DNA of 25,692 nt, from contig CAYRME010000001.1 in assembly GCA_964425505.1 (NCBI GenBank), forward strand, positions 1 through 25,692, written 5' to 3'. This DNA comes from an uncultured Candidatus Saccharibacteria bacterium. GTDB taxonomy: Bacteria; Patescibacteriota; Minisyncoccia; Minisyncoccales; PWPS01. Positions within the stretch are counted from its first letter, which is position 1. The number at the start of each line of letters is the position of its first letter. Positions 2,450 to 25,291 of this stretch are shown piece by piece. The translations under genes and the position numbers were made by a program. Below the pieces are notes generated by a model that had not been told where the DNA came from, ran no database searches, and saw only the letters and a list, made by a program, of their open reading frames with translations.

Positions 2450-2890
2450 ATGAAAAAAATACTCATAGCCATTTTAATGATAGCTGTTTTCGCGGTTCCG
2501 GTAGTAGGGCTTGCGAATGGTTACCTTGAACTTCCGGGTGTTAAAAGAGGTGAGGATGCTCCTGGTGTGATCATAGGAACACCGGGGGAGATTGAGGGTC
2601 TTGCCGGGTGGCTCTTGACCTTTGTATGGGGACTTTTGATCCTGGTAGTGGTAGGGTTCTTCCTGTATGCCGGATTCCTTTTTGTCACCGCTGCGGGAAG
2701 TGATGAAAAGATAACTCAGGCGAAACAGATGGTTACTTACGGAATTGTGGGAGTTATAGTAATGCTCCTTGCCTGGGGTGTAGTGGAACTCATGCAAGCA
2801 TTCTTGGAAGCACCTGACAACGGAGGTGGTAATGTGGTAATGGAGAACACCGAACACGTAAAGAATTATTTAACGGCGCGGTTCTTCTAG
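2450..2890 (+). CDS. TrbC/VirB2-like pilin paralog
   Basis: Signal peptide MKKILIAILMIAVFAVPVVGLA, two TM helices flanking AGFLFVTAAGSDEKITQA. Confidence 0.75.
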   Translation: MKKILIAILMIAVFAVPVVGLANGYLELPGVKRGEDAPGVIIGTPGEIEGLAGWLLTFVWGLLILVVVGFFLYAGFLFVTAAGSDEKITQAKQMVTYGIVGVIVMLLAWGVVELMQAFLEAPDNGGGNVVMENTEHVKNYLTARFF

Positions 2891-11968: not shown

Positions 11969-13024
11969 ATGATAAATCTTCCCTTTTTCTCCAAAAAACC
12001 GGGTAATTTCTTGGGCGTTGATATAGGAACCTCCTCCGTGAAAGTAGTGGAGCTTTCCGGGCGGGAAGATGATCTTACTCTGGAGAACTATGGGGAAGTT
12101 TTTATGAGAGAATTTCTTGGGGAGAGTGAGAAGAAAGAAAAGGAGGGCAACCTACCCTTTTCAAGCGAAGAAATAGCGAACGCCCTCTCCACTCTCCTTG
12201 ATGAAGCGGGGATAGGAACCAGGAGAGCCTATTTCTCTCTTCCGGACTTTGTTAGTTTTTTCACTCCTCTGAAATTGCCGCCCATGAAAGAAGAGGAGAT
12301 AGATTCCGCGGTGGAGCACCACTCGAGACAATACATTCCTCTTCCTATTTCCGAGGTCGCTTTGGATTGGTTCTTGGCGGAAAAGCGAGAAGAAAAAAAA
12401 GAAGTAAAGGTTAATCTCATAGCGATCCCCAATGAGGTCATAGAACAGTATCAAAAAATAGCGAGTCTTGCCGAGATGGAGGTTGTTGCTCTGGAAGGAG
12501 AGATGCTCTCTTTGTCGAGAGCTTTCACTCGTCAAAGGGAAGGCGTAACAGCGATCATCGATATGGGAGAACAAAGTACACTTCTTTCCGTTGTGGAGAA
12601 CGGGGTATTAAAAACCACCCATAGCCTCGAGATAGCGGGGAATTCCTTTATTGGTCAAATTGCAAAGAAAGCGAGTATTGATTATAATCAAGCAAGGGGC
12701 ATAGTGACGAGTTACGGGGTGAAGGAAGATGTGGTAAAGAGAGTGATGAGCAATACTTCTCAGTCTCTGTTTTCCGAGGTCGATCGTGTACTGAACTCTT
12801 TTGAAAAGAAACAGAAAAAGGAGGTGAACGAAGTTATTATGGCGGGAGGAATGTCCTTGGTCCCGGGAATGGTGGAGTATGCAAGAGATAACATGACAAG
12901 AGAGGTGAGAGTGAGCAATTGTTTTGAGGGCATAAGCTATCCCTCGGAACTGGAAGATAAGATGAAGAGTTTGAGTCAATCCCATGCTATTTCTTTGGGA
13001 GCCGCATTAAATGAAATAACGTAA
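11969..13024 (+). CDS. pilM: Type IV pilus assembly protein PilM (actin-like)
   Basis: LGVDIGTSSVKVVEL, IIDMGEQST, VIMAGGMS, AISLGAAL; first gene of a pilMNO block. Confidence 0.92.
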   Translation: MINLPFFSKKPGNFLGVDIGTSSVKVVELSGREDDLTLENYGEVFMREFLGESEKKEKEGNLPFSSEEIANALSTLLDEAGIGTRRAYFSLPDFVSFFTPLKLPPMKEEEIDSAVEHHSRQYIPLPISEVALDWFLAEKREEKKEVKVNLIAIPNEVIEQYQKIASLAEMEVVALEGEMLSLSRAFTRQREGVTAIIDMGEQSTLLSVVENGVLKTTHSLEIAGNSFIGQIAKKASIDYNQARGIVTSYGVKEDVVKRVMSNTSQSLFSEVDRVLNSFEKKQKKEVNEVIMAGGMSLVPGMVEYARDNMTREVRVSNCFEGISYPSELEDKMKSLSQSHAISLGAALNEIT

Positions 13025-13037
13025 TAACTTTTCCTTT

Positions 13038-13616
13038 ATGGCCATTAAGGTGGGAGAGGAACAAAAAAAGAAACAGGGGAAGGGCAAAGAAGTTCCTCAA
13101 AGTTTGGATATTTTTCTTCCCGTCACCCTCATTCTACTCCTTCTCATGGGAGGCGCTTACTTTTTTGTCCTCTCTTTGGAGTCGCAAGCCAAAGAAGAAA
13201 AGGAGGAATTGGAAAGAATGATAGAGGTAAAAGAGGAAGAGATTCCCGAGGAGACTGAAGAGAGGGTTGAGAGGTACAGTGATCTCTTTAACGATTTTAA
13301 GACAGTTGTGGAACGCCATCATGTTGCTTCTCCCTTCTTTGAGCCGCTTGAAAGGAGGATGCATTCTCGTGTGGAGATCAATATTCTAGATCTTGATCTT
13401 GAGAACAATGAACTTTCTTTGTCCGGAGAAGGGGAGGGCTTTGTGGCAGTGGGACAGCAGTTTCATGCTCTTAAAGATGCAGATTTCATAAAAGAAATAG
13501 ATCTTAGCAATCTTGAGCTTGTCAAGGCAGAAGAAGGCCCTGATCACATTAACTTTTCCTTTGAAGGAAGGGTAAAACCAGAGCTTATTAAATTCATTAC
13601 CGAAGAAGATGATTAA
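13038..13616 (+). CDS. pilN: PilN-like alignment protein
   Basis: Single N-terminal TM, coiled coil, ferredoxin-like end (LSLSGEG...INFSFEG); position after pilM. Confidence 0.72.
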   Translation: MAIKVGEEQKKKQGKGKEVPQSLDIFLPVTLILLLLMGGAYFFVLSLESQAKEEKEELERMIEVKEEEIPEETEERVERYSDLFNDFKTVVERHHVASPFFEPLERRMHSRVEINILDLDLENNELSLSGEGEGFVAVGQQFHALKDADFIKEIDLSNLELVKAEEGPDHINFSFEGRVKPELIKFITEEDD

Positions 13617-14193
13617 ACTTATTCTCACCATTGTATTCTTTGTCTCTTTTGTAGCGGGAGGATTATACCTTGTGCATCCGGTATATGAGGATTATGTTCT
13701 CCAAGAAGAGGAAAATGAGGCCCTCCAAGAAGAGCTTGACAGTATAGAGAACTATATAGAGGAATTAGAAGCTCTGGAAGAAAGAGCGGAAGAAGAGGAA
13801 GAGGATATTGAAGTACTGGAAAGTGCTTTCCCGGAAGATCACGATACTCCTTCTTTGTTTCTTTACTTAAAAGAAGTGGCGGAAAATAATAACTTATCGG
13901 TTGGAAGCGGGTTTGGTAGTTTTTCCGTGGAGCCCTATGTAGAATTATCTGATGATGAGGAGGCGGAAGGAGAGGAGCATTCTCGAATAAAAGAAATCAG
14001 TTTTGATATAACGATCAGCGGTGATTATGAGGATATAAAGAATTTCTTTGATGATATAGAAAAAGTCGCAAGGCTTATCAGAGTGGATGAAGTAAGTATT
14101 TCCTACGGGGAAGGGGATCCTTTCATGACAGGAGATGAGACCGAAGAGGATGAATTTGATGCTACTATACAAGCAAGTACTTATTCTTATTAA
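13609..14193 (+). CDS. pilO: PilO-like alignment protein
   Basis: N-terminal TM, coiled coil, AFPEDHDTPSLFLYL, ISGDYEDIKNFFDDIEKVARLIRVDEVSI. Confidence 0.85.
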   Translation: MIKLILTIVFFVSFVAGGLYLVHPVYEDYVLQEEENEALQEELDSIENYIEELEALEERAEEEEEDIEVLESAFPEDHDTPSLFLYLKEVAENNNLSVGSGFGSFSVEPYVELSDDEEAEGEEHSRIKEISFDITISGDYEDIKNFFDDIEKVARLIRVDEVSISYGEGDPFMTGDETEEDEFDATIQASTYSY

Positions 14194-14199
14194 ATTCTT

Positions 14200-14475
14200 A
14201 TGAGTCCCGAAACGAACAAGACGGAAAAGGCGAACAAGCAAGTTGTCATTATTGGCACCATTCTCGTTTTGGGAGCCATAGGGTTTCTTGCTTGGAAATT
14301 CTTTTTGGATGAACCTCAGCACGATGTCCCTCCTGTTCCTGCCACGAGAACCGCTCCCACTTTGGATTTTGAGTATCTTGAGAGCGATGAATTCGAATAT
14401 TTCGAAGAATATGAGAGCATAGATCCTCCCGAAGAAGGAGACTTGGGACGTGACAATCCTTTCCTTCCTTATTGA
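14200..14475 (+). CDS. Small single-TM protein at the pilP position, ending in GRDNPF
   Basis: One hydrophobic helix, Pro/acidic linker, terminal GRDNPFLPY; between pilO and pilB. Confidence 0.7.
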   Translation: MSPETNKTEKANKQVVIIGTILVLGAIGFLAWKFFLDEPQHDVPPVPATRTAPTLDFEYLESDEFEYFEEYESIDPPEEGDLGRDNPFLPY

Positions 14476-14483
14476 ATCTCTTT

Positions 14484-17400
14484 ATGGAAATAACCGACAA
14501 ACTTGTCGAAAAAGATCTTTTGAACGAGGAAAAGGCCTCTCATGTAAAGGAGAGAGCGGAAGAGGAGGAGCTTGAGGAAGAGGAGGTGATCCTCGAAGAG
14601 AGTCTTGTTCCCGAAGAAGAACTCTTTAAAGTAAAGAGCGAGCTTCTGGGTGTTTCTTTAAGAGGAGATGTGAGTAAAGAGGATATTCCCGGAGAAGTTC
14701 TTGATCTTTTGAATCGGGAGTCAATTGAGCATTTCAAGATGATCCCTATCGGGAAAGAGGAGGACGGTACAGTGAGGATCGGAATGGTTTTTCCGGAGGA
14801 CCTTCGAGCGCAACAAGCACTAAAATTTACTCTCAAAAGAAAAAATATTCCCTATGAAATACATCTCTTGTCTTTGAGTAAGTTCAATGAACTTACCAAA
14901 ACCCTTAAAGAGGGGTCTTCGGAAGAAGAAGCGCAAGAGGAACCTTCTTACGAAGATCTCCAAGAAGAAGATCTTTCCGAAGAAGGAACCTTAGAGAAAC
15001 CGAAAGATAAAGGGGATGAAGATGTGGTAGCTCTTCTCGCGGGAAAAGGTTTTTTAAATGAAGAACAAAAAAAAGAAGTAAAGGAAAAAGCCGAGCGAGA
15101 AGAAAGGAATGAGGAAGAGGTGATACTTGAAGAGGATCTTGTTTCCGAAGAAGACCTCTTCAATGTAAAGAGCGAGGTAGTGGATTTTCCTCTAAAGGAA
15201 GATGTGGAGGTGGAAGCCATACCGGAGGATGTGCTTGACCTTATCCATGAGGACTCTGTTGATCACTACAAAATGATCCCTATCGGAAAAGAAGGGGAGC
15301 AGGTGCAGATAGGAATGGTTCATCCCGAGGATCTGAAGGCTCAGGAAGCACTTCGGTTCATCTCGAGACAAAAGATCTTTTCTTATAAGGTTTATCTTAT
15401 ACCTTTAAGTCTTTTTGAGAGAACAAGAAAGAGATTTCGAGTGATGGGAAAAGATCTTAGTGCTGTCCTTCTCGATGATCTTGTTGAAGGAGGTTTCCTT
15501 GACGAAGAAAAAAAAGAAGAAATTGAAAAAAAGTCTGAAAAGAGCGAGAAACCCAAAGAGGAGGTGATCCTCGAAGAGGAATTCCTTTCCGAGGAGGATC
15601 TCTTCAAGGTAAAGAGCGAGGTAGTGGAGACTCCCTTAAAAGAGGAAGTGAACGAAGAGAATGTTACCGAGGAACTTTTGAAATTGTTCTCGAGAGATGA
15701 GATGAACCACTATCGAATGATCCCTATTGAGAAGAGAGAGGATGGTGTCATTGAGGTTGGAATGGTTTACCCGGAGGATCCCGGAGCTGTGGAGGCGCTG
15801 GATTTTCTTTCAAGACAAGGAAATTTTGAATACGAGATCCGCCTCATCACTTTGAGCGATTTCAAAAAAGCGGCCAAGAAAGTAAAGAAGGTAACCAAGG
15901 AGGCGGGATCTCTTCTTACGGAGAAATTGGTGGAGAAGGAGTTTATTGATGATGAAGAGGCCAATTCCATAGATTCTCGAGCGGAAAGCGGAGAAAAAAG
16001 TAGAGAAGAACTCATCTTGGACCAAAAACTTGTTTCCGAAGAGGATCTTTTCAAAGTGAAAAGTGAAGTTACGGGGGTGCCTTTCAAGGATGATGTTGAT
16101 GTAAAGGGAATTCCGGAGAATATCTTAAGGGTTATTCCCGAAGATTCGGCGAATTATTACAGGATGGCCCCTATTGGAAAAGAAGATGATGCGATCCAGG
16201 TGGGAATGATCCATCCGGAGGACCTTCGGGCCAAGGAAGCTCTCAGATTCCTTGCAAGAAGAGATGATTTCTCTTATAAGATCTATCTTATTTCGCTAAG
16301 CACTTTTGAAGAGATAAGCAAGCAATATCGTACTCTTTCCGAAGAGGTGGGTAAGGCCTTGGAGGATCTTGATACGGAGCTTGAAGAAACGGAAGAAGAA
16401 GAGGTTACGGAAGAAGAGGATATCGGAAAACTTGCCGAAGAGGCTCCCATTGTAAAGGTGGTGGGAGTTATATTAAGGAATGCCGTGGAAGGAAGTGCAT
16501 CCGATATTCATATTGAGCCTACGAGAGACAAATTAAAGGTTAGGTTCCGTGTGGACGGAGAGCTTCATTCCTCTTTATTCCTTCCAGGCGGTACCCATCT
16601 TGCGGCGATCGCCAGGATAAAGATTCTTGCGGGATTAAAGATCGATGAACAGCGGCTCCCGCAGGACGGGAGATTTTCAAGTAAAATAGGTGATAAGACC
16701 GTGGATTTTCGTGTTGCAACTCTTCCCACAACCCTGGGAGAGAAGGCGGTGATAAGAGTTCTTGATCCTACGCAAGGATTAAAAACCGTAGAGGAGCTCG
16801 GGGTGAGCGGAAAGAATTACCAGGTTTTAAATAGCGCCATGAAGAAGCCCACGGGAATGCTTCTTGTTACCGGTCCCACCGGTTCGGGTAAGACCACCAC
16901 TCTCTATTCTGCAATGAGGATATTGAACGAGGACAGGGTCAATATCGTAACCTTGGAAGATCCGGTGGAATATTTCATAGATGGAGTTAATCAATCCCAA
17001 GTGAACCCGGATATAGGGTATGTCTTCTCTTCCGGATTGAGACAGATCCTGCGTCAGGACCCGGACATCATAATGGTTGGTGAGATTCGTGATGAAGAGA
17101 CGGCGGACCTTGCCGTGCACGCCGCTCTTACCGGTCATATCGTACTTTCCACTTTGCACACCAATGATGCCACCGGAGTGGTTCATCGTCTCATTGACAT
17201 GGGAATAAAACCTTTTCTTATACCTCCTTCCCTGAATACTTCCATGGCGCAAAGACTTGTAAAGAGGCTTTGTGATAAATGCAAGGAAGAAGTTGAGCCA
17301 AGCGATGAGATAAAGGCCATGATAGGTGAAGAACTCGAAAAATTACCAAAAGAGGCCCTGCAGGGAGTAGATCCTTCTTCCTTTAAAGTCTATAAAGCGA

Positions 17401-17633
17401 ACGGTTGTAAGCATTGCTCCGAAGAAGGCTTCGAGGGAAGGATCGGCATCTTTGAGTTATTCAAGATGACGGAGGATATCGGAGAAGTTGTAATGAGGAA
17501 CCCCACGGAAAAGGAGTTGAAGGCAGAGGTGAAAAAGCAAGGAATGGTGGACCTCAAAAAGGACGGTTTTTTGAAGGTGATTCAGGGATACACCACTATA
17601 GAGGAGGTATTGCGTGCAACGGAAGAAAAGTAG
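14484..17633 (+). CDS. pilB: Type IV pilus extension ATPase PilB/GspE with four tandem N-terminal modules
   Basis: ASDIHIEP, RLPQDGRF, Walker A GPTGSGKT, LRQDPDIIMVGEIRD, His box LSTLHTND, CDKC/CKHC zinc motif; about 620 aa N-terminal repeat region. ATG at 14484 preferred over TTG at 14472. Confidence 0.93.
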   Translation: MEITDKLVEKDLLNEEKASHVKERAEEEELEEEEVILEESLVPEEELFKVKSELLGVSLRGDVSKEDIPGEVLDLLNRESIEHFKMIPIGKEEDGTVRIGMVFPEDLRAQQALKFTLKRKNIPYEIHLLSLSKFNELTKTLKEGSSEEEAQEEPSYEDLQEEDLSEEGTLEKPKDKGDEDVVALLAGKGFLNEEQKKEVKEKAEREERNEEEVILEEDLVSEEDLFNVKSEVVDFPLKEDVEVEAIPEDVLDLIHEDSVDHYKMIPIGKEGEQVQIGMVHPEDLKAQEALRFISRQKIFSYKVYLIPLSLFERTRKRFRVMGKDLSAVLLDDLVEGGFLDEEKKEEIEKKSEKSEKPKEEVILEEEFLSEEDLFKVKSEVVETPLKEEVNEENVTEELLKLFSRDEMNHYRMIPIEKREDGVIEVGMVYPEDPGAVEALDFLSRQGNFEYEIRLITLSDFKKAAKKVKKVTKEAGSLLTEKLVEKEFIDDEEANSIDSRAESGEKSREELILDQKLVSEEDLFKVKSEVTGVPFKDDVDVKGIPENILRVIPEDSANYYRMAPIGKEDDAIQVGMIHPEDLRAKEALRFLARRDDFSYKIYLISLSTFEEISKQYRTLSEEVGKALEDLDTELEETEEEEVTEEEDIGKLAEEAPIVKVVGVILRNAVEGSASDIHIEPTRDKLKVRFRVDGELHSSLFLPGGTHLAAIARIKILAGLKIDEQRLPQDGRFSSKIGDKTVDFRVATLPTTLGEKAVIRVLDPTQGLKTVEELGVSGKNYQVLNSAMKKPTGMLLVTGPTGSGKTTTLYSAMRILNEDRVNIVTLEDPVEYFIDGVNQSQVNPDIGYVFSSGLRQILRQDPDIIMVGEIRDEETADLAVHAALTGHIVLSTLHTNDATGVVHRLIDMGIKPFLIPPSLNTSMAQRLVKRLCDKCKEEVEPSDEIKAMIGEELEKLPKEALQGVDPSSFKVYKANGCKHCSEEGFEGRIGIFELFKMTEDIGEVVMRNPTEKELKAEVKKQGMVDLKKDGFLKVIQGYTTIEEVLRATEEK

Positions 17634-17662: not shown

Positions 17663-18742
17663 ATGGAAGAGGAAAAAAAAGACTACAAGTCGCTTCTTGA
17701 AGATCTGATGCAAATAGCTGTTGAGGAAGGGGCTTCCGATCTTCACATATCGGTGGGGCATCCTCCCATTATCAGGGTGGATGGTAAGCTCATTGCGTTA
17801 AAGAAGAAAGAGGTCGTCACTTCTCACGACGCAAGGGAGCTTGCTATGACGATGATGAGCAAGGATCAAAGGGATAAGTTCGTGAGCAACTACGAGGTGG
17901 ATTTCTCTTACAATTACAAGGACGTGGCCCGTTTCAGGGTCAATATATTCTTCCAGAGAGGAGAGATCTCCTGTGCGATGAGACTCATTCCGAGTAAAGT
18001 AAAGAGCCTGGAGGAGATAAACATGCCCACTTCTCTTTATGATTTCTGTGGGAACTCTCAAGGGTTCGTCATAGTTACCGGTCCTACGGGTCATGGTAAA
18101 TCCACAACTTTGGCGGCGCTCATAGACAAGATAAATCAAGATAAGTTCAGTCATATCATAACCATTGAGGACCCCATCGAGTATGTCTTTGAAGAAGAGA
18201 GGTCTCTTATCGATCAAAGAGAGATACAACAGGACGCTCTCTCCTTTCCCAGAGCGTTAAAATCGGTCTTCAGGCAAGACCCGGACGTGATAATGGTGGG
18301 AGAGATGAGGGATCCCATTACCATATCGACTGCTATTACCGCCGCCGAGACGGGACACCTAGTCTTTTCCACGTTACACACCAACTCGGCCAGTCAAACC
18401 ATTCATCGTATTATTGACTCTTTCCCTCCGGAGCAGCAAGCACAGATAAGAGCGCAACTCTCGGCGGCGCTTCTCGGTGTTGTTTCTCAGAGGATCATTC
18501 CGGCAAAGAGGGGCGGGGTAATGCCGGCCTATGAGATAATGGCGGCGACTCCTGCAGTGGGGAATCTCATAAGAGAGAACAAGGTACATGAGATAGACCT
18601 TGTTATAGAGACTTCGAGCAAAGAGGGAATGATAAGTTTGAATCGTTCTCTCGCCGATCTTGTAAGACAAGGCGAGATATCCAAAGAAGATGCACTATCC
18701 TTTTCCAGAAACCCCTCGGAACTAAAAAGAAAGCTTACTTAA
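17663..18742 (+). CDS. pilT: Type IV pilus retraction ATPase PilT
   Basis: ASDLHISVGHPP, GPTGHGKSTT, TIEDPIE, RQDPDVIMVGEMRD, AAETGHLVFSTLHTNSA, AVGNLIRE (AIRNLIRE-like). Confidence 0.94.
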   Translation: MEEEKKDYKSLLEDLMQIAVEEGASDLHISVGHPPIIRVDGKLIALKKKEVVTSHDARELAMTMMSKDQRDKFVSNYEVDFSYNYKDVARFRVNIFFQRGEISCAMRLIPSKVKSLEEINMPTSLYDFCGNSQGFVIVTGPTGHGKSTTLAALIDKINQDKFSHIITIEDPIEYVFEEERSLIDQREIQQDALSFPRALKSVFRQDPDVIMVGEMRDPITISTAITAAETGHLVFSTLHTNSASQTIHRIIDSFPPEQQAQIRAQLSAALLGVVSQRIIPAKRGGVMPAYEIMAATPAVGNLIRENKVHEIDLVIETSSKEGMISLNRSLADLVRQGEISKEDALSFSRNPSELKRKLT

Positions 18743-18748: not shown

Positions 18749-19957
18749 ATGTTATTTGAATACAAAGCAAGAGATAAGGACGGCAACATTCAAGAAGGAG
18801 AGGTGGAGGCTTCCTCAAAGGAGGCCGCTTCTTTGGTAGTGGAGAGTTACGGATTATATATAGTCTCTCTGCAAAAGAAGAAGATACCTTTTTACAAAAA
18901 GGAGCTTCCTCCCATATTTGAAAGAGTTTCGGGAAAGGATATCGTAATGATCTCGAGGCAACTCGCGGTAATGGCGGAATCCAAGATCCCTATCGTGGAA
19001 GCTTTGCAGACTCTTTCCAGGCAACTTGAAAAAAAATCCTTGAGAGAAAAGATACTTGCGGTTGCGGACAAGGTGGAAGGAGGAATGCCGCTCTCGAAGG
19101 CGCTTTCTCAGTACCCGGAAGTGTTCTCGGAATTTTATGTGAACATGGTGAAATCCGGAGAGGCCTCCGGTAAACTCTCGGAGGCATTGAGATACTTGGC
19201 GGACCACATAGAGAAGGAATATAAGTTCCAACAGAAGATAAGGGGAGCGATGTTCTACCCTGTTTTTATTCTCATCGTTTTTGTGGGAATAATGATCTTC
19301 CTTTTTGTGGGAATAATGCCGGAACTTACGGATATACTTCTTGATGCGGGAGAGGAGATTCCCGCCATTACTCAGCTTGTAATAGGTATCTCGGATTTCA
19401 TGGTGGAAAGGGGGTGGATATTGGCTGTGGCGGCTTATTCCATAACGGTCTTTGCCATTAAGTTCTTCACTACCTCTCAAGGAAGGGAGATGTTCGATAA
19501 GTTCGTTCTGAAGGCTCCTGTGTTCCGGGATTTCTTCAAAAAAACTTATATCATCAGGTTTGCCGAGAGTTTCTCCACTCTCATAGCCGCGGGAGTTCCC
19601 ATAGTAAAATCTCTGGAAATAAGTGGCGAGATCGTTCAGAACACTGTCTACAAGAACGCCATTTTTCAGATTGCCGAGAATGTGGAGAAAGGGAGGCAAG
19701 TAAGTGAGTCAATGAAGAAATATCCGGATCTTTTCCCCGCCATGCTCATTCAAATGTCCTTGGTTGGAGAGAGAAGTGGTAGGTTGGGACCTTCTCTCAT
19801 GAATGTGGTTGATTTCTTGCAAGACGAACTTCAAAGAACCCTTGACAAGTACATAAGCATGATCGAGCCGGCCTTGATAATAAGTTTAGGGGTCTTGGTG
19901 GGAGGACTTGTCGCTTCCGTGCTCATTCCCATCTACAATGTGAGCATGTCGATATAG
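18749..19957 (+). CDS. pilC: Type IV pilus platform protein PilC (GspF family)
   Basis: Two GspF repeats (GEASGKLSEAL, GERSGRLGPSL), AMFYPVFIL and MIEPALII TM entries. Confidence 0.93.
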   Translation: MLFEYKARDKDGNIQEGEVEASSKEAASLVVESYGLYIVSLQKKKIPFYKKELPPIFERVSGKDIVMISRQLAVMAESKIPIVEALQTLSRQLEKKSLREKILAVADKVEGGMPLSKALSQYPEVFSEFYVNMVKSGEASGKLSEALRYLADHIEKEYKFQQKIRGAMFYPVFILIVFVGIMIFLFVGIMPELTDILLDAGEEIPAITQLVIGISDFMVERGWILAVAAYSITVFAIKFFTTSQGREMFDKFVLKAPVFRDFFKKTYIIRFAESFSTLIAAGVPIVKSLEISGEIVQNTVYKNAIFQIAENVEKGRQVSESMKKYPDLFPAMLIQMSLVGERSGRLGPSLMNVVDFLQDELQRTLDKYISMIEPALIISLGVLVGGLVASVLIPIYNVSMSI

Positions 19958-20234: not shown

Positions 20235-20290
20235 GCAAGGCAAGGAGTTATGCATAAAAGGTCGTTTAAGCAAAGTTTAAAATAAAAAGT

Positions 20291-20701
20291 ATGTTACAAA
20301 AGATAAAGAAAGGCGGTTTCACCCTCATTGAGCTACTTGTCGTTATCGCCATCATCGCTATTCTCGCTACACTCGTTCTCGTAGCATTAGAAGGAGCTCA
20401 AGATCAGGCGGAGGATGCCGATAAACAGGGAGCGATATCTCAAATCAGATCCTTGGCGCAATTGGAGTATTCGGAAGAAGGAAATTATTCCGGCATTGAG
20501 GATCGTGATGAGTTTCCCGAAGACGAAATACACGGTGATGAGGTCCAGGTACTTGTAGATGATACCGACTCCGACTATTTCGTGGCTTATATAGAGAACT
20601 CCGAAGGCAATTATTTCTGTACGGATGATAGTCTGGATGTAGGTGAGGTTGATAATGCACCTGACGATGGAGCCGAAGAATGCCCCACTTTCATGGACTA
20701 A
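20291..20701 (+). CDS. Type IV prepilin 1 (probable major pilin)
   Basis: Basic leader, G|[17 protein letters not shown] cleavage/methylation motif with Glu5, C-terminal Cys pair. Confidence 0.93.
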   Translation: MLQKIKKGGFTLIELLVVIAIIAILATLVLVALEGAQDQAEDADKQGAISQIRSLAQLEYSEEGNYSGIEDRDEFPEDEIHGDEVQVLVDDTDSDYFVAYIENSEGNYFCTDDSLDVGEVDNAPDDGAEECPTFMD

Positions 20702-20724
20702 AAGCAAGCGACCAAAGTGATCAC

Positions 20725-20764
20725 AAAAAGAGCGGCTCTTTTATTTGAGGGGCCGCTCTTTCTC
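20725..20764 (+). terminator. Intrinsic terminator after pilin 1 (second copy at 21287-21326)
   Basis: aaagagcggctctt...ggggccgctcttt stem with G-U pairs and a T-rich tail. Confidence 0.75.
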
Positions 20765-20792
20765 TTGATGGAAAAGTAAAACTTGTTATACT
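20765..20792 (+). promoter_or_regulatory. Promoter for pilin 2 (second copy at 21327-21354 for pilin 3)
   Basis: TTGATG-16 nt-TATACT with extended -10 TGn, directly after the terminator. Confidence 0.62.
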
Positions 20793-20852
20793 AGAGAAAG
20801 TAAGAATAAGGTCAAAGAATACAAAGGTCGTATAAAATAAAACAAGAAGTAT

Positions 20853-21263
20853 ATGTTACAAAAAATAAAGAAAGGCGGTTTCACCCTCATTGAGCTACTT
20901 GTCGTTATCGCCATCATCGCTATTCTCGCTACACTCGTTCTCGTAGCATTAGAAGGAGCTCAAGATCAGGCGGAGGATGCCGATAAACAGGGAGCGATAT
21001 CTCAAATCAGATCCTTGGCGCAATTGGAGTATTCGGAAGAAGGAAATTATTCCGGCATTGAGGATCGTGATGAGTTTCCCGAAGACGAAATACACGGTGA
21101 TGAGGTCCAGGTACTTGTAGATGATACCGACTCCGACTATTTCGTGGCTTATATAGAGAACTCCGAAGGCAATTATTTCTGTACGGATGATAGTCTGGAT
21201 GTAGGTGAGGTTGATAATGCACCTGACGATGGAGCCGAAGAATGCCCCACTTTCATGGACTAA
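20853..21263 (+). CDS. Type IV prepilin 2, protein identical to prepilin 1
   Basis: Identical translation. Confidence 0.93.
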   Translation: MLQKIKKGGFTLIELLVVIAIIAILATLVLVALEGAQDQAEDADKQGAISQIRSLAQLEYSEEGNYSGIEDRDEFPEDEIHGDEVQVLVDDTDSDYFVAYIENSEGNYFCTDDSLDVGEVDNAPDDGAEECPTFMD

Positions 21264-21415
21264 AAGCAAGCGACCAAAGTGATCACAAAAAGAGCGGCTC
21301 TTTTATTTGAGGGGCCGCTCTTTCTCTTGATGGAAAAGTAAAACTTGTTATACTAGAGAAAGTAAGAATAAGGTCAAAGAATACAAAGGTCGTATAAGCT
21401 TTAAAAAAGAAACAT

Positions 21416-21844
21416 ATGTTACAAAAGATAAAGAAAGGCGGTTTCACCCTTATCGAGCTACTTGTGGTGATCGCCATCATCGCTATTCTTGCTACACTCG
21501 TTCTCGTAGCCCTCGAGGGAGCACAAGATCAGGCAAGAGACGCTGACAGACAAGGGGCAATAGCTCAAGTAAGAACCCTTGCTGAACTTGAAGCGGTACA
21601 ACATGAAGAAGGGCATTATGATGATCTTGCAGGTGCGGTAGGTGAGGAAGTTACCGATGAAGAAGGAGAAGTAAGAGGTAGCGAGCTTCACGTGGAAGGA
21701 AGTGGAGAGAATTTCATTGCTTTCATAGAGAATTCCGAAGGCGACTATTTCTGCACGGATGAGACTTACAGCGTAGAAGATGTTGACTCGGAAGACCTTG
21801 ACCCGACTAACTTTGGTGCCGATGACAATTGTGTAGTAGAATAG
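21416..21844 (+). CDS. Type IV prepilin 3
   Basis: Same first 40 aa as prepilin 1, divergent head, [12 protein letters not shown] motif. Confidence 0.92.
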
Positions 21845-21863
21845 TTAAAATTCAAAGAAAGAG

Positions 21864-21893
21864 ACAAAAGCTCCCCTTCGGGGGAGTTTTTGT
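21864..21893 (+). terminator. Intrinsic terminator with cUUCGg tetraloop
   Basis: acaaaagctcccc-ttcg-ggggagtttttgt. Confidence 0.85.
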
Positions 21894-21922
21894 TTATTTT
21901 CAAAATATTCTATAATAAAGCA

Positions 21923-22330
21923 ATGACCAACAAGAATGGTTTTACATTAATTGAGTTACTTGTTGTTATCGCCATTATTGCTATTTTGGCTACACTCGTT
22001 CTTGTTGCGCTTGGCGGAGCGGGAGATCTGGCGGAAGATACCGACAGAAAAAGGGCCGTGTCGCAAATAAGATCCCTTTCGGAGATCTATTATACCGCGG
22101 ATGGGCATTATGAGAATTTGGAGGATGCCGAAGAGCTTGAAGAGGTGTTCGATAAATACGGAAAGGGAGATGAAGAAGAAGATCTTCTTGTCTTGGAAAC
22201 GGAAGAAGAAAGGTATTGTGCCGAAATAGAACTCACGGGCGATGATTATTTTTGTATTGATCATACTCTGAGGGAGAGAGAGGATCACACGGAGAGAGTT
22301 TGCAGTGAAGAGAATGTTGATTGTGACTAA
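21923..22330 (+). CDS. Type IV prepilin 4
   Basis: MTNKNG|FTLIELL, four Cys in the head; ATG at 21923 preferred over the ORF-track start at 21890, which lies in the terminator. Confidence 0.9.
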   Translation: MTNKNGFTLIELLVVIAIIAILATLVLVALGGAGDLAEDTDRKRAVSQIRSLSEIYYTADGHYENLEDAEELEEVFDKYGKGDEEEDLLVLETEEERYCAEIELTGDDYFCIDHTLREREDHTERVCSEENVDCD

Positions 22331-22348
22331 GAAAAATCGTTTTATTTT

Positions 22349-22822
22349 ATGAGAAAAATAAAAAAGAAGGACGGCTTTACGTTGCCCCGCAACGTGACCA
22401 CTAAAAGTGGTTTTACGTTGATCGAGCTACTTGTCGTTATCGCCATCATCGCTATCCTTGCCACGCTCGTTCTCGTCGCCCTCGAGGGAGCGCAAGGACA
22501 AGCAAGAGATGCGGACAGAGAGGGCGCTCTCTCACAAGTGAGAAATTATGCTCAGCTTTACTATACAAAAGAGAGAACTTATGATGGGCTTGATGAAGAG
22601 GGTAGCGAATTGCATAACATGGAAGATAGGGATATATTTTCTTCAAGATATTTTGACGAAGAGGTGGTGCCCTTTAGAGTTGAGACTGAAGAAGATGAGT
22701 TTTGTGCCCACATTCATCTTGAAGTTGAGGAAAAATATGTATGTGTGGACAATGATCTGGAGCTCAAAAGAGGTGATACATGTGAGGACCTCACAGAAGG
22801 AGCGAGATGTGTAGAAAATTAA
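22349..22822 (+). CDS. Type IV prepilin 5 with duplicated GFTL leader
   Basis: KKDGFTLPRNVTTKSG|FTLIELL, four Cys. Confidence 0.9.
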   Translation: MRKIKKKDGFTLPRNVTTKSGFTLIELLVVIAIIAILATLVLVALEGAQGQARDADREGALSQVRNYAQLYYTKERTYDGLDEEGSELHNMEDRDIFSSRYFDEEVVPFRVETEEDEFCAHIHLEVEEKYVCVDNDLELKRGDTCEDLTEGARCVEN

Positions 22823-22830
22823 TTGTTTTT

Positions 22831-23328
22831 ATGAAAATAATTTCCGAAAAAAGGAATAAGGGTCTTACCATCATGGAGCTCATGGTAGTTCTTGTTATTA
22901 TTGCGGTCTTGACTTCTGTGATACTTGTTTCTTTTAATATGGCGAGGGAGAGAACGAGGGATGAAGTAATAAAGAGCGAGCTTGAGCAATTAATGGGAAT
23001 TGCCGAAACTGCCTATCATCCCGAATTGCAATATGAAGAACTTTATAAAATGAGAGAAGATGATCATGAGAATATAGTTACAATAAGGAATAGGATTGAG
23101 GATGATATGGGGCAAGACTTCAATTTTAATTTTCCCGAGGACTCAGTAGATTTTGATGGCTTTGATCAATATTGTGCGTATGTACGTCTTGTTTTTGAAG
23201 ATGAAAAGATGTTTTGCATAGATTACAGAGGGGTAGCTACTGCAAAGGAAGTTCCGAGAGGGGCAACCGAGTTAAATTGCCAAGAAAGAGATAGTAAATA
23301 TGCCGACTGTGACCGTATAGAAGAATAA
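22831..23328 (+). CDS. Type IV prepilin 6 (minor)
   Basis: RNKG|LTIMELMVVLVII, YCAY...FCID motif; ATG at 22831. Confidence 0.88.
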   Translation: MKIISEKRNKGLTIMELMVVLVIIAVLTSVILVSFNMARERTRDEVIKSELEQLMGIAETAYHPELQYEELYKMREDDHENIVTIRNRIEDDMGQDFNFNFPEDSVDFDGFDQYCAYVRLVFEDEKMFCIDYRGVATAKEVPRGATELNCQERDSKYADCDRIEE

Positions 23329-23338
23329 GTTGTGGTTA

Positions 23339-23367
23339 TTGCATTGTTTCAAAATTTTTTATATTAT
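23339..23367 (+). promoter_or_regulatory. Possible internal promoter for prepilin 7-pilD
   Basis: TTGCAT-17 nt-TATTAT in an AT-rich gap. Confidence 0.45.
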
Positions 23368-23404
23368 AAAGTAAGATAATTATTATTAGTCTAAAAAAAG
23401 ATTC

Positions 23405-23929
23405 ATGATACAGGAAAAAGAAAAAGGTGTTACTCTAATAGAACTTCTTACTGTTATCGTTATCATTGGTATCTTGGCTACCGTGGTACTTGTTTCTTTG
23501 GATTATGCAAGGGAAAGTGCCAGAGATTCCACTATTGAGCAACAAATGCATCAACTAAGAAATGTTGCCGAGGCCGCTTATACTTTTGAAGATGGATATG
23601 AAAGGCTGAATACTCTAATGGAAAGTTATGAGGAGGATGGGGAAGATAATGAATACGGAATGATAAAAAATCAGATAGAAGATGTTGCCGCCGAAGAGGT
23701 TTTGGACGATGAAAAGAAGGTAGATGTCGATGAAGCTTTTGAATTAAGGGTGAACGAAGGAGATAATTACAGTGAATATTGCGCTTACGCCTATCTTGTA
23801 ACGCATACCGATGAGGTTCATTGCATAGATTCTGCGGGAAACGCCGAGAGGATGGATACGGAAGAAGAAGCTGGTGTTAAGTGTGTAGAGGGTGTTGACT
23901 ATGTATGTGAGATAGAAGAAGGTTTCTAG
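23405..23929 (+). CDS. Type IV prepilin 7 (minor)
   Basis: KEKG|VTLIELLTVIVII, YCAY...HCID motif. Confidence 0.88.
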   Translation: MIQEKEKGVTLIELLTVIVIIGILATVVLVSLDYARESARDSTIEQQMHQLRNVAEAAYTFEDGYERLNTLMESYEEDGEDNEYGMIKNQIEDVAAEEVLDDEKKVDVDEAFELRVNEGDNYSEYCAYAYLVTHTDEVHCIDSAGNAERMDTEEEAGVKCVEGVDYVCEIEEGF

Positions 23930-23936
23930 GTGTGCT

Positions 23937-24740
23937 ATGTATTATGCGGTATTTCTTGTCTTTTTGGCAGGTCTCTTTCTAGGATCTTTTTTGAATTGCA
24001 TTATATATAGAACAAGCATCGGTAAGAAGCCCGAAGGAAGGTCTTATTGCCCCAAGTGCAAGCACACTTTACAGACCAGGGATCTTATTCCCCTCTTCAG
24101 CTTTCTTTTCCTTTTAGGGAAATGCAGATACTGCAAAAAAAAGATTTCTCTTGAGTACCCCCTTATAGAATTCTTAACGGGGGTGCTTTTTGTTTTTTCT
24201 GCGTCTCACTCCGGTTTTTTGACCTCCTTTCCCGCTGTTTCCACGGTGGAGGTTGCCATTATGGTGTATCTTTTTGCTATTTTTTTCTTTCTTCTCCTTA
24301 TCTTCTTCTATGATCTTAAATACTTCCTTATTCCCGATATTGCCGTTTTCTCTCTTATAGGACTCTCTTTCCTTTTCCTTTTTTCAGAATTTCTTTTCGA
24401 GGGAGACGTGGAAATTCTCATTCATGGAATTTTTGCCGCTCTGGGAGCTTTTCTTGTCTTCTTTCTTCTTTTTTATTTCACCAAAGGAAGAGGGATGGGA
24501 TTTGGTGATGTAAAATTCGTTGTTTTTATGGGTCTTTTTTTGGGGGTGCCTAATATAATTGCGGGGCTTTTTATTTCCTTTCTTTTGGGTGCTATAATAG
24601 GAATAATACTCATACTTTTTAAGAAAAAGGGAATGAAGAGCCAGATTCCCTTTGGGCCGTTCCTTGTTATCGGTACTCTCTTGGCTCTTTCCTTTGGAGA
24701 GACGATAATGGAATTCTATATTAACCACCTTCTCTACTAA
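23937..24740 (+). CDS. pilD: Prepilin peptidase PilD
   Basis: GSFLNCIIYR, RSYCPKC...KCRYC zinc motif, YDLKYFLIPD, GMGFGDVK catalytic Asp motif, IPFGPFL. Confidence 0.95.
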   Translation: MYYAVFLVFLAGLFLGSFLNCIIYRTSIGKKPEGRSYCPKCKHTLQTRDLIPLFSFLFLLGKCRYCKKKISLEYPLIEFLTGVLFVFSASHSGFLTSFPAVSTVEVAIMVYLFAIFFFLLLIFFYDLKYFLIPDIAVFSLIGLSFLFLFSEFLFEGDVEILIHGIFAALGAFLVFFLLFYFTKGRGMGFGDVKFVVFMGLFLGVPNIIAGLFISFLLGAIIGIILILFKKKGMKSQIPFGPFLVIGTLLALSFGETIMEFYINHLLY

Positions 24741-25291
24741 TGACTCAAAAAAAAGCTCCCAAAGAAAGAAGACAAGGACTTACTTTAATAGAATTAATGG
24801 TGGTCTTTGCGATTGTCATGGTCCTTATTGTTTATACCATTGCCGGATACTCCGGGGCTTTTCCGAGACTTGCCATGGAAAGAAATATTGAGACCCTAAA
24901 GAGTGATATTTACAGGGCAAGGGAGCGTGCCTATAGTTCTCTGGCTCATGATTATGAGGGAGAAATAAAGAATAGTAGCTACGGGATCCTTATAGAGAAT
25001 ACGGATGAAGGAGCTGATAGTTATACTTTTTTTAGAACTAAAGAGTCAAACAAAGAATACGGAGAAGGTGCGGTCAATGAAAGGGTTGTGGATCTTGAGG
25101 AAGGTATTCATATAGAAAGTGAAGAATATGAGGACCTTCATATACTGTTCTGTTCCGAAGAAAAAAAGGTTTATTTCAACGGTGAAAAGGCGGAAGGTGA
25201 TCTGGAGGTCACTCTCTCCTATGAAGGAGAAGAGTTTGATGATAGAATTCTCATAATCGATGAACAGGGAACTGTGGAGCTTGAATTCTGA
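24740..25291 (+). CDS. Minor pilin / pseudopilin (FimT/GspH-like)
   Basis: RRQG|LTLIELMVVFAI; starts in the pilD stop codon. Confidence 0.8.
   Translation: MTQKKAPKERRQGLTLIELMVVFAIVMVLIVYTIAGYSGAFPRLAMERNIETLKSDIYRARERAYSSLAHDYEGEIKNSSYGILIENTDEGADSYTFFRTKESNKEYGEGAVNERVVDLEEGIHIESEEYEDLHILFCSEEKKVYFNGEKAEGDLEVTLSYEGEEFDDRILIIDEQGTVELEF

What the first reader, a model, noticed from the sequence alone, without database searches (positions are those of the whole stretch)
14484..16331. PilB with four tandem ~140-aa N-terminal modules
Seen: four homologous modules (about nt 14484-14909, 15021-15440, 15465-15884, 15912-16331), each with L-x3-(G/D/E)-(F/L)-(L/I), EE(V/L)IL, (S/P)EE(D/E)LF-x-VKSE, (Y/F)-(K/R)-M-x-PI-(G/E)-K and GM-x2-PED, with an acidic linker after module 1, giving a 1049-aa ATPase. 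Established: PilB/GspE usually has one such N-domain (MshEN/T2SSE_N type) that contacts PilM or GspL. The c-di-GMP motif RLG...Q is not present in any copy. Inference: a hexamer would display 24 modules, possibly a multivalent PilM scaffold, or sensors for several ligands or pilin sets, matching the expanded pilin array.
Basis: partly seen in the sequence, partly recalled or inferred. Interest (0 to 1): 0.76.

Follow-up and report, generated by a model that had tools for sequence, protein, structure and literature searches.

The report
Pilus motor with four N-terminal domains
This is the type IV pilus assembly ATPase (PilB) of an uncultured Patescibacteria (CPR) bacterium. It carries four, instead of the usual one, complete MshEN/GSPII-type N-terminal domains, and none of them can bind c-di-GMP in the known way. 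The layout is real and conserved in its clade, but it extends the three-domain design known from Thermus PilF and is not a new kind of machine.

Summary
ORF 14484-17633 (+) encodes a 1049-aa PilB with an intact ATPase half and four ~140-aa modules. Each module alone passes Pfam's MshEN threshold. Module 2 was modelled (pLDDT 95) and matches the whole MshEN/GSPII fold: V. cholerae MshE and Thermus PilF GSPII-A and GSPII-B. The copies are old: 44-51% identical in protein and 61-72% in DNA, so they are not an assembly artefact.

All 25 protein clusters of the immediate clade are multi-module (24 with four modules, one with seven). They form one clade in the ATPase tree. All 95 other listed Patescibacteria relatives and all 80 GTDB loci have one module.

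None of 196 modules matches even the relaxed c-di-GMP motif. The motif is also absent from the one-module relatives.

Four-MshEN PilBs arose independently elsewhere (Ca. Magnetoovum and Magnetobacterium, Nitrospirota, with canonical motifs), and Thermus PilF has three.

Most likely mechanism, inferred by analogy with PilF:
- The ATPase-proximal module 4, the most conserved, couples the motor to the PilM/N/O platform.
- Modules 1-3 form extra tiers that stabilise the hexamer or add docking valency.

The proposed link to the pilin array is not supported. Verdict: new variant of a known kind, moderate interest.

The parts
14484..17633 (+). pilB: 1049-aa type IV pilus extension ATPase (stop codon included)
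   Evidence: Translation; Pfam T2SSE plus 4x MshEN; 24 orthologous clusters of 1016-1116 aa
14487..14909 (+). Module 1 (aa 2-142), a complete MshEN/GSPII domain, net charge -14
   Evidence: (39.6 bits)
14910..15020 (+). Acidic disordered linker (aa 143-179, net -14). Its length varies among orthologues and most lack it.
   Evidence: (pLDDT below 40)
15021..15440 (+). Module 2 (aa 180-319), a complete MshEN/GSPII domain. This module type was re-duplicated in the 7-module relative.
   Evidence: AF2 model pLDDT 94.9; Foldseek TM 0.77 to 5HTL
15465..15887 (+). Module 3 (aa 328-468), a complete MshEN/GSPII domain. It groups by position across orthologues.
15912..16331 (+). Module 4 (aa 477-616), the ATPase-proximal MshEN/GSPII domain. 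It is the most conserved module and the closest to the single module of relatives.
   Evidence: (59% among orthologues; 44% to single-module proteins)
16332..16457 (+). Acidic linker to the ATPase half (aa 617-658, net -15). It overlaps the start of the Pfam T2SSE match at aa 651.
16434..17615 (+). N2 plus C-terminal ATPase domains (aa 651-1044). Walker A GPTGSGKT is at aa 797-804, and four invariant Cys are at 930, 933, 975 and 978.
   Evidence: T2SSE 428.9 bits; invariant columns; sequence
11969..13024 (+). pilM (351 aa), the actin-like platform protein and likely docking partner of PilB
   Evidence: PilM_2, 1.3e-33. It has about the same length in single- and multi-module loci.
13038..13616 (+). 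pilN-like gene (192 aa)
   Evidence: Weak PilN / PAP_PilO hits; conserved position
13609..14193 (+). pilO (194 aa, net charge -47)
14200..14475 (+). Conserved 91-aa ORF with one predicted transmembrane helix and an acidic tail, lying between pilO and pilB
   Evidence: No Pfam hit; homologues at the same position in L081, L082 and 9 single-module loci
17663..18742 (+). pilT (359 aa), the retraction ATPase
18749..19957 (+). pilC (402 aa), the platform protein
   Evidence: T2SSF, 2 stretches
20291..25291 (+). Eight pilin-like genes with the N_methyl motif (starts 20291, 20853, 21416, 21890, 22349, 22807, 23405, 24740), plus the prepilin peptidase pilD at 23937-24740

Best explanation
The gene is the pilus-extension motor PilB of a Patescibacteria (Paceibacteria-like) type IV pilus operon: pilM-N-O-orf91-pilB-pilT-pilC-pilins-pilD.

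Shown:
- The C-terminal half is a normal, apparently active PilB/GspE ATPase.
- The N-terminal 616 residues are four tandem, complete MshEN/GSPII domains. Each has a four-helix bundle plus an alpha/beta subdomain.
- The array arose by tandem duplication in the ancestor of one small clade and has been kept in every known member since. One relative has grown to seven modules.
- All eight half-motifs lack the Arg, Gly and Gln needed for c-di-GMP binding, as do the one-module relatives. The modules are therefore not c-di-GMP receptors of the MshE/PilF-B type.

Inferred, by analogy with Thermus PilF:
- Module 4 is next to the ATPase, is the most conserved, and is the closest to the ancestral single domain. 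It is probably the module that couples the hexamer to the PilM/PilN/PilO platform, as GSPII-C does in PilF.
- Modules 1-3 probably form additional tiers that contact neighbouring subunits. They would stabilise or tune the hexamer and may add low-affinity docking valency for PilM.
- The strong negative charge, about -10 per module and about -87 over the whole N-region here, would keep the tiers extended.
- The expected net effect is on pilus dynamics (assembly rate or persistence), not on ATP hydrolysis itself.
For: Identity and anatomy:
- Pfam finds T2SSE plus 4 MshEN, each module above threshold on its own.
- The module profile aligns over positions 3-116 to MshE 5HTL, PilF 6F8L/9G1W and Geobacter PilB 5TSG.
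- The AF2 model of module 2 has pLDDT 94.9. Foldseek top hits cover the whole domain: 5HTL (TM 0.77), Xanthomonas PilB-N 7LKM, PilF GSPII-A 9G1W, GSPII-B 8PDK and XpsE-N 2D28.
- The full-length model gives the same secondary-structure pattern four times, at pLDDT about 71-89, with disordered linkers.
- Walker A and the four-Cys motif are invariant.

Clade conservation and single origin:
- 24 clusters have 4 modules, 1 has 7 and 95 have 1.
- The multi-module proteins are monophyletic in the ATPase tree (30/30 NJ bootstraps). Their ATPase identity to the window is 67-79%, against 56-62% for single-module proteins.
- Modules 3 and 4 group by position across orthologues.
- The operon order is the same in L081 and L082.

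Ongoing duplication: modules 2-4 of the 7-module P0002 are 76-87% identical to each other. They form a 444-nt tandem array with 79-84% matches.

No c-di-GMP motif:
- 0 of 196 modules match the relaxed motif of PMC5013675, while MshE motif II scores 11/11.
- Gly at position 3 is critical for binding (PMC12002112).

Analogy with PilF:
- PilF has three GSPII domains.
- GSPII-C is required for PilMN stimulation (PMC6325625).
- Deleting A+B or all three destabilises the complex (PMC6325625).
- GSPII domains of adjacent subunits contact each other in the hexamer (PMC6145873).
- Deleting GSPII-A lowers twitching motility but not ATPase activity (PMC12002112).

Module 4 is special: 59% identity among orthologues against 46-52% for modules 1-3, and it is the nearest to single-module domains.

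Charge.
Against: - No interaction or arrangement was tested. The full-length model has pTM 0.34 and says nothing about how the tiers pack.
- In Thermus no GSPII domain is needed to bind PilMN (PMC6325625), so 'multivalent PilM docking' may be wrong.
- PilM shows no matching change in length between one- and four-module loci.
- Module 4 has the same acidic shift and the same hydrophobic-to-charged replacements as modules 1-3 relative to single-module proteins. It is therefore not simply the unchanged ancestral domain.
- The invariant Lys in the VKSE motif (K50 in alignment A4) and the EE pair in EE(V/L)IL, conserved in 84-92 of 94 modules and 90-93 of 95 single-module domains, could mark a different ligand or partner site that this account ignores.
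Confidence: 0.55

Rival explanations
1. The four modules are a multi-site sensor array. Each binds a small ligand, either c-di-GMP in a non-canonical way or a different nucleotide or metabolite, and the motor integrates several signals.
For: MshEN domains are established c-di-GMP receptors (PMC5013675), and two of the three PilF domains bind it (PMC12002112). The four-helix bundle that forms the pocket is retained in every module. A clade-wide motif set conserved in modules and single-module domains alike (EE in 84-93 of about 95; K of VKSE in 92-95 of about 95) could line a new pocket.
Against: 0 of 196 modules match even the relaxed motif. Arg1, Gly3, Leu21 and Gln24 are replaced in all eight half-motifs, mostly by Glu, Lys or Val. 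PilF GSPII-A fails to bind with far fewer deviations, and Gly3 is critical (PMC12002112). The one-module relatives lack the motif too, so the loss came before the expansion. Acidic pockets are poor sites for anionic nucleotides.
Confidence: 0.1
2. The extra modules are adaptors for additional protein partners other than the PilM/N/O platform. Examples would be a PilZ-like regulator, a second platform, or competence/DNA-handling proteins. One motor could then serve several pilus functions.
For: The same fold binds PilZ in Xanthomonas citri PilB (7LKM; PMC8389850) and XpsL/EpsL in T2SS (2D28 and 2BH1). Modules 1-4 have diverged to 44-51% identity and are each conserved by position (modules 3 and 4), as expected if each has its own partner. 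Patescibacteria use T4P for host binding, motility and possibly DNA uptake (PMC12206443).
Against: No candidate partner gene is specific to multi-module loci. Operon content matches that of single-module loci, including orf91. The jump from 4 to 7 modules by re-duplicating one module type fits dosage or length tuning better than distinct partners. The pilin-number link is weak, and PilB is cytoplasmic, so it does not touch pilin globular domains.
Confidence: 0.15
3. The array is mainly a passive, highly charged spacer or 'entropic bristle'. Length and negative charge matter (copy number 4-7), not specific binding. It would, for example, hold the ATPase ring at a set distance or keep nucleoid and ribosomes away from the pilus base in an ultra-small cell.
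For: Net charge is about -10 per module in the whole clade, against 0 in one-module relatives. Linkers carry -14 and -15, and the window's N-region totals about -87. The shift is not proteome-wide, since GyrA-C, RecG and the methyltransferase are basic. Linker length and module number vary.
Against: A pure spacer would not need folded domains kept at 46-59% identity by position, with the same core motifs as functional single domains. Linkers are mostly only 8 residues long, which gives little entropic freedom.
Confidence: 0.15
4. The repeat is an artefact: an assembly error, a chimeric contig, or a mis-called gene fusing several ORFs.
For: Metagenome assemblies can expand or collapse repeats. 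An exact 562-bp duplication elsewhere in the window shows repeats occur on this contig.
Against: The copies are only 61-72% identical in DNA. The frame is open for 1049 codons. The same four-module layout occurs in 23 other protein clusters from NCBI, JGI, ENA and Logan assemblies, with conserved synteny.
Confidence: 0.01

Closest known systems
Thermus thermophilus PilF (T4P/DNA-uptake extension ATPase with three GSPII domains A-C; PDB 6F8L, 6EJF, 9G1W, 8PDK)
   Same: A PilB-type ATPase preceded by several tandem complete GSPII/MshEN domains. Module 2 matches GSPII-A and GSPII-B in fold and the module profile matches PilF in sequence. [quoted passage not shown] Both sit with pilM/N/O.
   Different: There are four modules here (seven in a relative) against three. 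The origin is independent, because this clade nests among one-module Patescibacteria PilBs. No module keeps the c-di-GMP motif, whereas PilF-B and PilF-C bind it at 324 and 12 nM, assigned to B and C respectively (PMC12002112). The modules are strongly acidic. The host is a monoderm-like ultra-small bacterium without a secretin.
Four-MshEN PilBs of Nitrospirota magnetotactic bacteria (Ca. Magnetoovum chiemensis P0251, Ca. Magnetobacterium P0271/P0274, and P0275)
   Same: The same 4x MshEN + T2SSE architecture and similar length, 1018-1091 aa. These are database entries only; no study of them was found.
   Different: Their modules are canonical: about 57-65 Pfam bits each against 32-40 here. 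Relaxed c-di-GMP motifs are present in modules 2-4 of P0251. Their similarity to the window's module profile is weak (66 bits in total), so this is a separate expansion. Some carry a C-terminal double zinc ribbon.
Vibrio cholerae MshE N-domain (MshEN, PDB 5HTL), the c-di-GMP receptor prototype
   Same: The whole 140-aa fold matches (TM 0.77), and the profile aligns over residues 11-119. The hydrophobic scaffold positions of both 24-residue motifs are kept.
   Different: MshE has a single copy. Arg, Gly3, Leu21 and Gln24 of both motifs are replaced here, so the defining ligand-binding feature is not met.
One-module PilB of other Patescibacteria (Nealsonbacteria, Parcubacteria, Paceibacterota; 576-590 aa)
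   Same: The ATPase half is 56-62% identical. The operon is the same, including orf91. The same degenerate motif and the same module signature (EEVIL, LKSE, MIP, GMVYPED) are present.
   Different: They have one module against four. Their module is neutral (net 0) against about -10 here. Hydrophobic residues at module positions 22, 24 and 45 are replaced by charged residues in the four-module clade.
GspE/EpsE/XpsE N1 domain bound to GspL (T2SS; PDB 2BH1, 4PHT, 2D28) and Xanthomonas citri PilB-N bound to PilZ (7LKM)
   Same: The alpha/beta subdomain (2BH1, 65 columns) or the whole domain (2D28, 7LKM) is matched by fold. These are the experimental precedents for this domain acting as a protein-docking module.
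   Different: They have single copies, and the partners (GspL cytoplasmic domain, PilZ) were not tested here. No PilZ gene lies in the window.

Membership tests
PilB/GspE-type secretion ATPase (Pfam T2SSE, PF00437) | N2 plus CTD ATPase core matching the family profile above the curated cut-off | tested here: met
   428.9 bits against 24.9, aa 651-1044 covering profile positions 3-370 of 370
PilB/GspE-type secretion ATPase (Pfam T2SSE, PF00437) | Walker A (GPTGSGKT), Asp/His-box region and tetracysteine motif present | tested here: met
   GPTGSGKT at aa 797-804. DPDIIMVGEIRD, LTGHIVLSTLHTN and C930/C933/C975/C978 are invariant in 20 orthologues.
PilB/GspE-type secretion ATPase (Pfam T2SSE, PF00437) | Hexamer formation and ATP hydrolysis | not testable with these tools
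   Needs purified protein
T4aP-like extension ATPase (PilB as opposed to PilT or GspE) | Encoded in a pilus operon with pilM/N/O, pilT, pilC, prepilin peptidase and pilins | tested here: met
   The same order is seen in L081 and L082.
MshEN / GSPII (N1) domain (Pfam PF05157) | Each module matches the family profile above the curated cut-off | tested here: met
   39.6, 35.8, 34.5 and 32.4 bits against 23.1
MshEN / GSPII (N1) domain (Pfam PF05157) | Two-subdomain fold: N-terminal four-helix bundle plus C-terminal alpha/beta subdomain | tested here: met
   AF2 model of module 2 with pLDDT 94.9. TM 0.67-0.77 over about 140 columns to 5HTL, 9G1W and 8PDK. The same secondary-structure pattern appears in all four modules.
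MshEN as c-di-GMP receptor (MshE, PilF GSPII-B/C) | Two tandem 24-residue motifs RLGxx(L/V/I)(L/V/I)xxG(L/V/I)(L/V/I)xxxxLxxxLxxQ, or the relaxed form [RKPN]hGxxhhxx[GAS]hhxxxxhxxxhxx[QNKRYWST] | tested here: not met
   0 of 196 modules, including all four here, match the relaxed motif. The best half-motifs satisfy 5-7 of 11 positions, and Gly3 and Leu21 are missing in every copy whose register aligns with the motif (module 4 motif II scored best at a shifted register); Arg1 is missing in five of eight and Gln24 in six of eight under the relaxed residue sets. The MshE control scores 11/11 (columns).
MshEN as c-di-GMP receptor (MshE, PilF GSPII-B/C) | Measured c-di-GMP binding | not testable with these tools
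   Needs ITC or DRaCALA on purified modules
PilF-type multi-GSPII traffic ATPase (Thermus thermophilus PilF) | More than one complete GSPII domain in tandem before the ATPase | tested here: met
   Four domains
PilF-type multi-GSPII traffic ATPase (Thermus thermophilus PilF) | Common descent of the multi-domain array with PilF (orthology) | tested here: not met
   The multi-module clade is nested among one-module Patescibacteria PilBs (30/30 bootstraps). Its modules resemble those single modules (about 130 bits) far more than PilF (17.5 bits for the best domain). This is a convergent expansion.
PilF-type multi-GSPII traffic ATPase (Thermus thermophilus PilF) | The ATPase-proximal GSPII domain mediates stimulation by PilMN, and the distal domains stabilise the hexamer | not testable with these tools
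   Inferred only from PMC6325625 and PMC6145873

The most novel reading that the evidence does not exclude
The degenerate, strongly acidic MshEN modules have been repurposed as a new kind of copy-number-tunable (4 to 7) regulatory array on the pilus motor. Each module would bind a ligand or partner unrelated to c-di-GMP through the clade-conserved EE / VKSE surface. Episymbiotic Patescibacteria, which appear to lack the canonical MshEN c-di-GMP input on this motor, would then control pilus extension through a so far unknown input.
Probability: 0.12. Interest if true: 0.65.

Novelty: new variant of a known kind. Interest (0 to 1): 0.4.

Why it matters
The experimental literature calls Thermus PilF unique for having three GSPII domains (PMC6325625), and the function of the extra domains is still described as unknown (PMC12002112). 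This clade adds three things:

- Tandem expansion of the PilB N-domain has happened repeatedly. It reaches four modules here and in Nitrospirota, and seven in one relative.
- It persists over long evolutionary time.
- It does so without any c-di-GMP motif.

The clade is thus a natural experiment that separates the structural or docking role of the extra domains from second-messenger sensing.

In Patescibacteria, type IV pili drive host attachment and motility (PMC12206443, PMC9894109), so a modified motor may bear on how these epibionts control their pili.

The gain is incremental. It refines an existing picture and does not open a new one.

Tried and rejected
- **GTDB scan with the window's N-region alone.** It gave 262 pattern matches and no relative.
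- **GTDB scan with the 20-protein alignment.** It returned 80 loci whose long match spans looked like multi-module genes. Extracting the ORFs showed that every one has a single module (or none detected, as in L023 and L067); the long spans were PilB plus the adjacent PilT.
- **The listing of cluster members for organism names.** None of the four-module proteins carries a name.
- **Lineage from ValRS.** The nearest named relatives are only Ca. Paceibacterota and Yonathbacteria at 58-59%. Contigs of the closest ValRS relatives end, or are rearranged, before any pil locus, so they could not show whether those genomes carry a four-module PilB.
- **Full-length AF2 with 20 sequences.** The modules fold, but pTM is 0.34 and the ATPase half is poorly modelled. 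Nothing can be said about tier packing.
- **Pilin number against module number.** A crude regex count gave 5, 5 and 7 for multi-module loci against a median of 3. Single-module loci reach 5-6, and the multi-module loci are one lineage. Rejected as evidence.
- **'Salt-in halophile' explanation for module acidity.** Rejected, because cytoplasmic GyrA-C, RecG and the methyltransferase are basic, and ValRS of close relatives has a median pI of 8.7.
- **PilM co-variation.** PilM has about the same length in both groups.
- **Literature search.** Searches for 'four MshEN', 'four GSPII' and 'multiple MshEN' found no paper describing such proteins.
Full report
**1. What is in the sequence**

The window is a Patescibacteria-type gene neighbourhood. 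It holds a GyrA C-terminus, a methyltransferase, two PF18895 'T4SS_pilin' genes, Hsp20, ValRS, TsaD, RecG and a DUF975 membrane protein.

A complete type IV pilus operon follows on the + strand:
- pilM, 11969-13024
- a pilN-like gene, 13038-13616
- pilO, 13609-14193
- a 91-aa ORF, 14200-14475
- the gene in question, 14484-17633
- pilT, 17663-18742
- pilC, 18749-19957
- eight pilin-like genes with the N-methylation motif
- the prepilin peptidase pilD, 23937-24740

The ORF is open for 1049 codons from the ATG at 14484. That Met is invariant in 20 orthologues.

**2. Check of the observation**

Pfam finds the ATPase core (T2SSE, aa 651-1044, E 1.6e-128) and four MshEN stretches.

An HMM built from the four modules places them at aa 2-142, 180-319, 328-468 and 477-616.

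In DNA they are 61-72% identical, which is too diverged for Tandem Repeats Finder. They are old duplications, not an assembly artefact.

The linker after module 1 (aa 143-179) has net charge -14 and is predicted disordered.

**3. What a module is**

The Pfam match covers only the second half of each module. A profile of the four modules, however, aligns over positions 3-116 with V. cholerae MshE (5HTL residues 11-119), Thermus PilF (6F8L, 9G1W) and Geobacter PilB (5TSG).

An AlphaFold2 model of module 2, built with a 64-sequence alignment, has mean pLDDT 94.9. It shows four helices followed by an alpha/beta unit.

Foldseek against the PDB returns whole-domain matches:
- MshEN with c-di-GMP (5HTL, TM 0.77)
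- the Xanthomonas citri PilB N-domain in complex with PilZ (7LKM)
- PilF GSPII-A (9G1W) and GSPII-B (8PDK)
- XpsE-N (2D28)

The full-length model repeats the same secondary-structure pattern four times at pLDDT about 71-89. Its pTM of 0.34 gives no information on how the modules pack.

Each module is therefore a complete MshEN/GSPII (N1) domain.

**4. c-di-GMP motif**

The defining ligand motif is two 24-residue copies of RLGxx(L/V/I)(L/V/I)xxG(L/V/I)(L/V/I)xxxxLxxxLxxQ. Wang et al. used a relaxed form for genome surveys (PMC5013675).

- None of the 196 modules from the 120 best homologues matches even the relaxed form.
- The eight half-motifs of this protein satisfy 5-7 of 11 constrained positions.
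- They keep the hydrophobic scaffold but lack Gly3 and Leu21 throughout (where the register aligns), and lack Arg1 and Gln24 in most copies.
- MshE motif II scores 11/11 as a control.
- The one-module Patescibacteria relatives lack the motif as well, so the loss came before the expansion.

PilF GSPII-A fails to bind with fewer deviations, and Gly3 is critical (PMC12002112). Canonical c-di-GMP sensing is therefore very unlikely.

**5. Distribution**

Among 5.8 billion clustered proteins, the best 120 hits to the whole protein comprise:
- 24 clusters with four modules (1016-1116 aa, plus two N-terminally cut ones),
- one with seven modules (P0002, 1466 aa, confirmed by Pfam),
- 95 with one module (576-600 aa).

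There are no two- or three-module intermediates. Bit scores drop from 1093 straight to 728.

An exhaustive HMM scan of 1.84 billion 50%-identity representatives with the module profile found few multi-module hits. Two representatives belong to this clade. The third is a distant protein, P0251, which the scan reported with three stretches and Pfam later resolved as four MshEN domains.

All 80 best loci from GTDB species representatives carry one-module PilBs.

In an ATPase-domain tree the 25 multi-module proteins are monophyletic in 30 of 30 NJ bootstraps. Their ATPase identity to the window is 67-79%, against 56-62% for one-module proteins.

Two further loci, L081 and L082, have the same operon order.

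The layout is thus the norm inside one small clade and rare across Patescibacteria. The nearest named relatives are Nealsonbacteria and Parcubacteria for PilB and Ca. Paceibacterota and Yonathbacteria for ValRS. At least some relatives come from assemblies whose isolate names (T1Sed10) appear in soda-lake studies. That habitat link is an inference.

**6. History of the array**

Modules 3 and 4 each group by position across all orthologues, including modules 6 and 7 of the seven-module protein. Module 4 branches nearest the single modules.

Identity among orthologous modules is 48%, 52%, 46% and 59% for modules 1 to 4. All four are under constraint, and module 4 the most.

Modules 1 and 2 group by lineage in three sub-clades, including the window's. 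This suggests gene conversion or re-duplication, but the NJ tree on 140 columns has low resolution.

In P0002, modules 2-4 are 76-87% identical to each other and related to the module-2 type. They form a 444-nt tandem array with 79-84% matches. Copy number is therefore still evolving by tandem duplication.

**7. Comparison with what is known**

The literature states that most PilBs have one such domain and that Thermus PilF has three (PMC6957770). [quoted passage not shown]

What is known about PilF:
- GSPII-B and GSPII-C bind c-di-GMP, and GSPII-A does not.
- No GSPII domain is needed to bind PilMN, but GSPII-C is needed for PilMN stimulation of ATPase activity.
- Removing A+B or all three destabilises the complex.
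- N-domains of adjacent subunits contact each other in the cryo-EM hexamer.
- Loss of GSPII-A lowers twitching motility but not ATPase activity.

No paper in the library mentions four MshEN or GSPII domains. Four-domain PilBs do exist in databases, however:
- P0251 is the annotated PilB of Ca. Magnetoovum chiemensis. It has four canonical MshEN domains and recognisable c-di-GMP motifs in modules 2-4.
- Ca. Magnetobacterium relatives also have four, and other relatives have three.

The window's protein is therefore an independent, convergent expansion. It differs in having only degenerate, acidic modules and, in one relative, the highest count seen here (seven).

**8. Mechanism**

Shown: an apparently functional PilB motor, with Walker A, His box and four Cys invariant, carrying four folded N1 domains that cannot bind c-di-GMP canonically.

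Inferred by analogy with PilF:
- Module 4 couples the motor to PilM/N/O.
- Modules 1-3 form extra tiers that stabilise or tune the hexamer and may add docking valency.

One clade-specific feature is charge. Modules here carry about -10 each, against 0 in one-module relatives, and the window's N-region sums to about -87. This is not a proteome-wide bias. It would favour an extended array.

Rival readings cannot be excluded: a sensor for another ligand, an adaptor for other partners, or a passive charged spacer. Assembly artefact is excluded.

**9. The pilin link**

The window has eight pilin-like genes. By one uniform regex count, multi-module loci have 5, 5 and 7 pilin-like ORFs within 8 kb downstream, and single-module loci have 0-6 with a median of 3. 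Several single-module loci (L003, L011, L024) reach 5-6. The three multi-module loci are one lineage. PilM has about the same length in both groups, and the 91-aa ORF is also shared. The proposed match between module number and pilin array is not supported.

**10. Verdict**

This is a real, clade-conserved architectural variant of a known kind: a PilF-like multi-GSPII PilB. It is of moderate interest, mainly as a natural separation of the structural role of extra N-domains from c-di-GMP sensing, and as evidence that 'three domains' is neither unique nor the upper limit.

Noticed in passing
window 20290-21414: The first two pilin genes (20291-20701 and 20853-21263, 136 aa each) lie in a tandem duplication with a 562-bp period. 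The aligned stretches are 100% identical. The third pilin gene (21416-21844) is a diverged copy, 62-92% identical by segment. This could be a very recent duplication or an assembly artefact.
   Followed up: partly
window 14200-14475: A 91-aa ORF with one predicted transmembrane helix and an acidic C-terminal tail ending DNPFLPY. It has no Pfam match. Homologues lie between pilO and pilB in L081, L082 and 9 single-module Patescibacteria loci. It may be an undescribed small platform component.
   Followed up: partly
L067:8255-10915 and L074:79-2568: Two Patescibacteria PilB reading frames (887 and 830 aa, read stop to stop) begin with an HU-type Bac_DNA_binding domain (PF00216, 52-61 bits). About 220-285 unassigned residues follow, then one MshEN domain and the ATPase. 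This may be an HU-PilB fusion. Start codons and a possible separate upstream hupA gene were not checked.
   Followed up: no
L081:9342-13742 (GCA_003560095.1, PWJI01000017.1): A relative encodes a 1466-aa PilB with seven MshEN modules. Modules 2-4 are 76-87% identical to each other and form a 444-nt tandem array (79-84% matches). This is the highest MshEN count seen here.
   Followed up: yes
window 13609-14193 and 20291-25291: PilO is extremely acidic (net -47 over 194 aa, pI 4.05), and the pilins have pI 4.05-4.63. Cytoplasmic GyrA-C, RecG and the methyltransferase are basic. The acidity is therefore confined to envelope or extracellular parts and, unusually, the cytoplasmic PilB N-region. This fits a saline or alkaline habitat, which was not verified.
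   Followed up: partly
window 14487-15440 (modules 1 and 2); P0003, P0004, P0023-P0025: In three sub-clades, modules 1 and 2 of the same protein group together and not with their positional counterparts in other proteins. This hints at gene conversion or independent re-duplication of the first two modules. The tree is NJ on 140 columns, so support is weak.
   Followed up: partly
window 1963-2890; L083, L084, L085: Two (window) or three (relatives) small PF18895 'T4SS_pilin' genes sit next to a methyltransferase and gyrA, in conserved synteny with Hsp20 and ValRS. Compared with L083 and L084, the RecG gene is inverted relative to TsaD and ValRS in the window.
   Followed up: no
P0271, P0275 (Ca. 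Magnetobacterium and an unnamed relative): Some four-MshEN PilBs carry an extra C-terminal double zinc ribbon (PF12773) after the ATPase.
   Followed up: no
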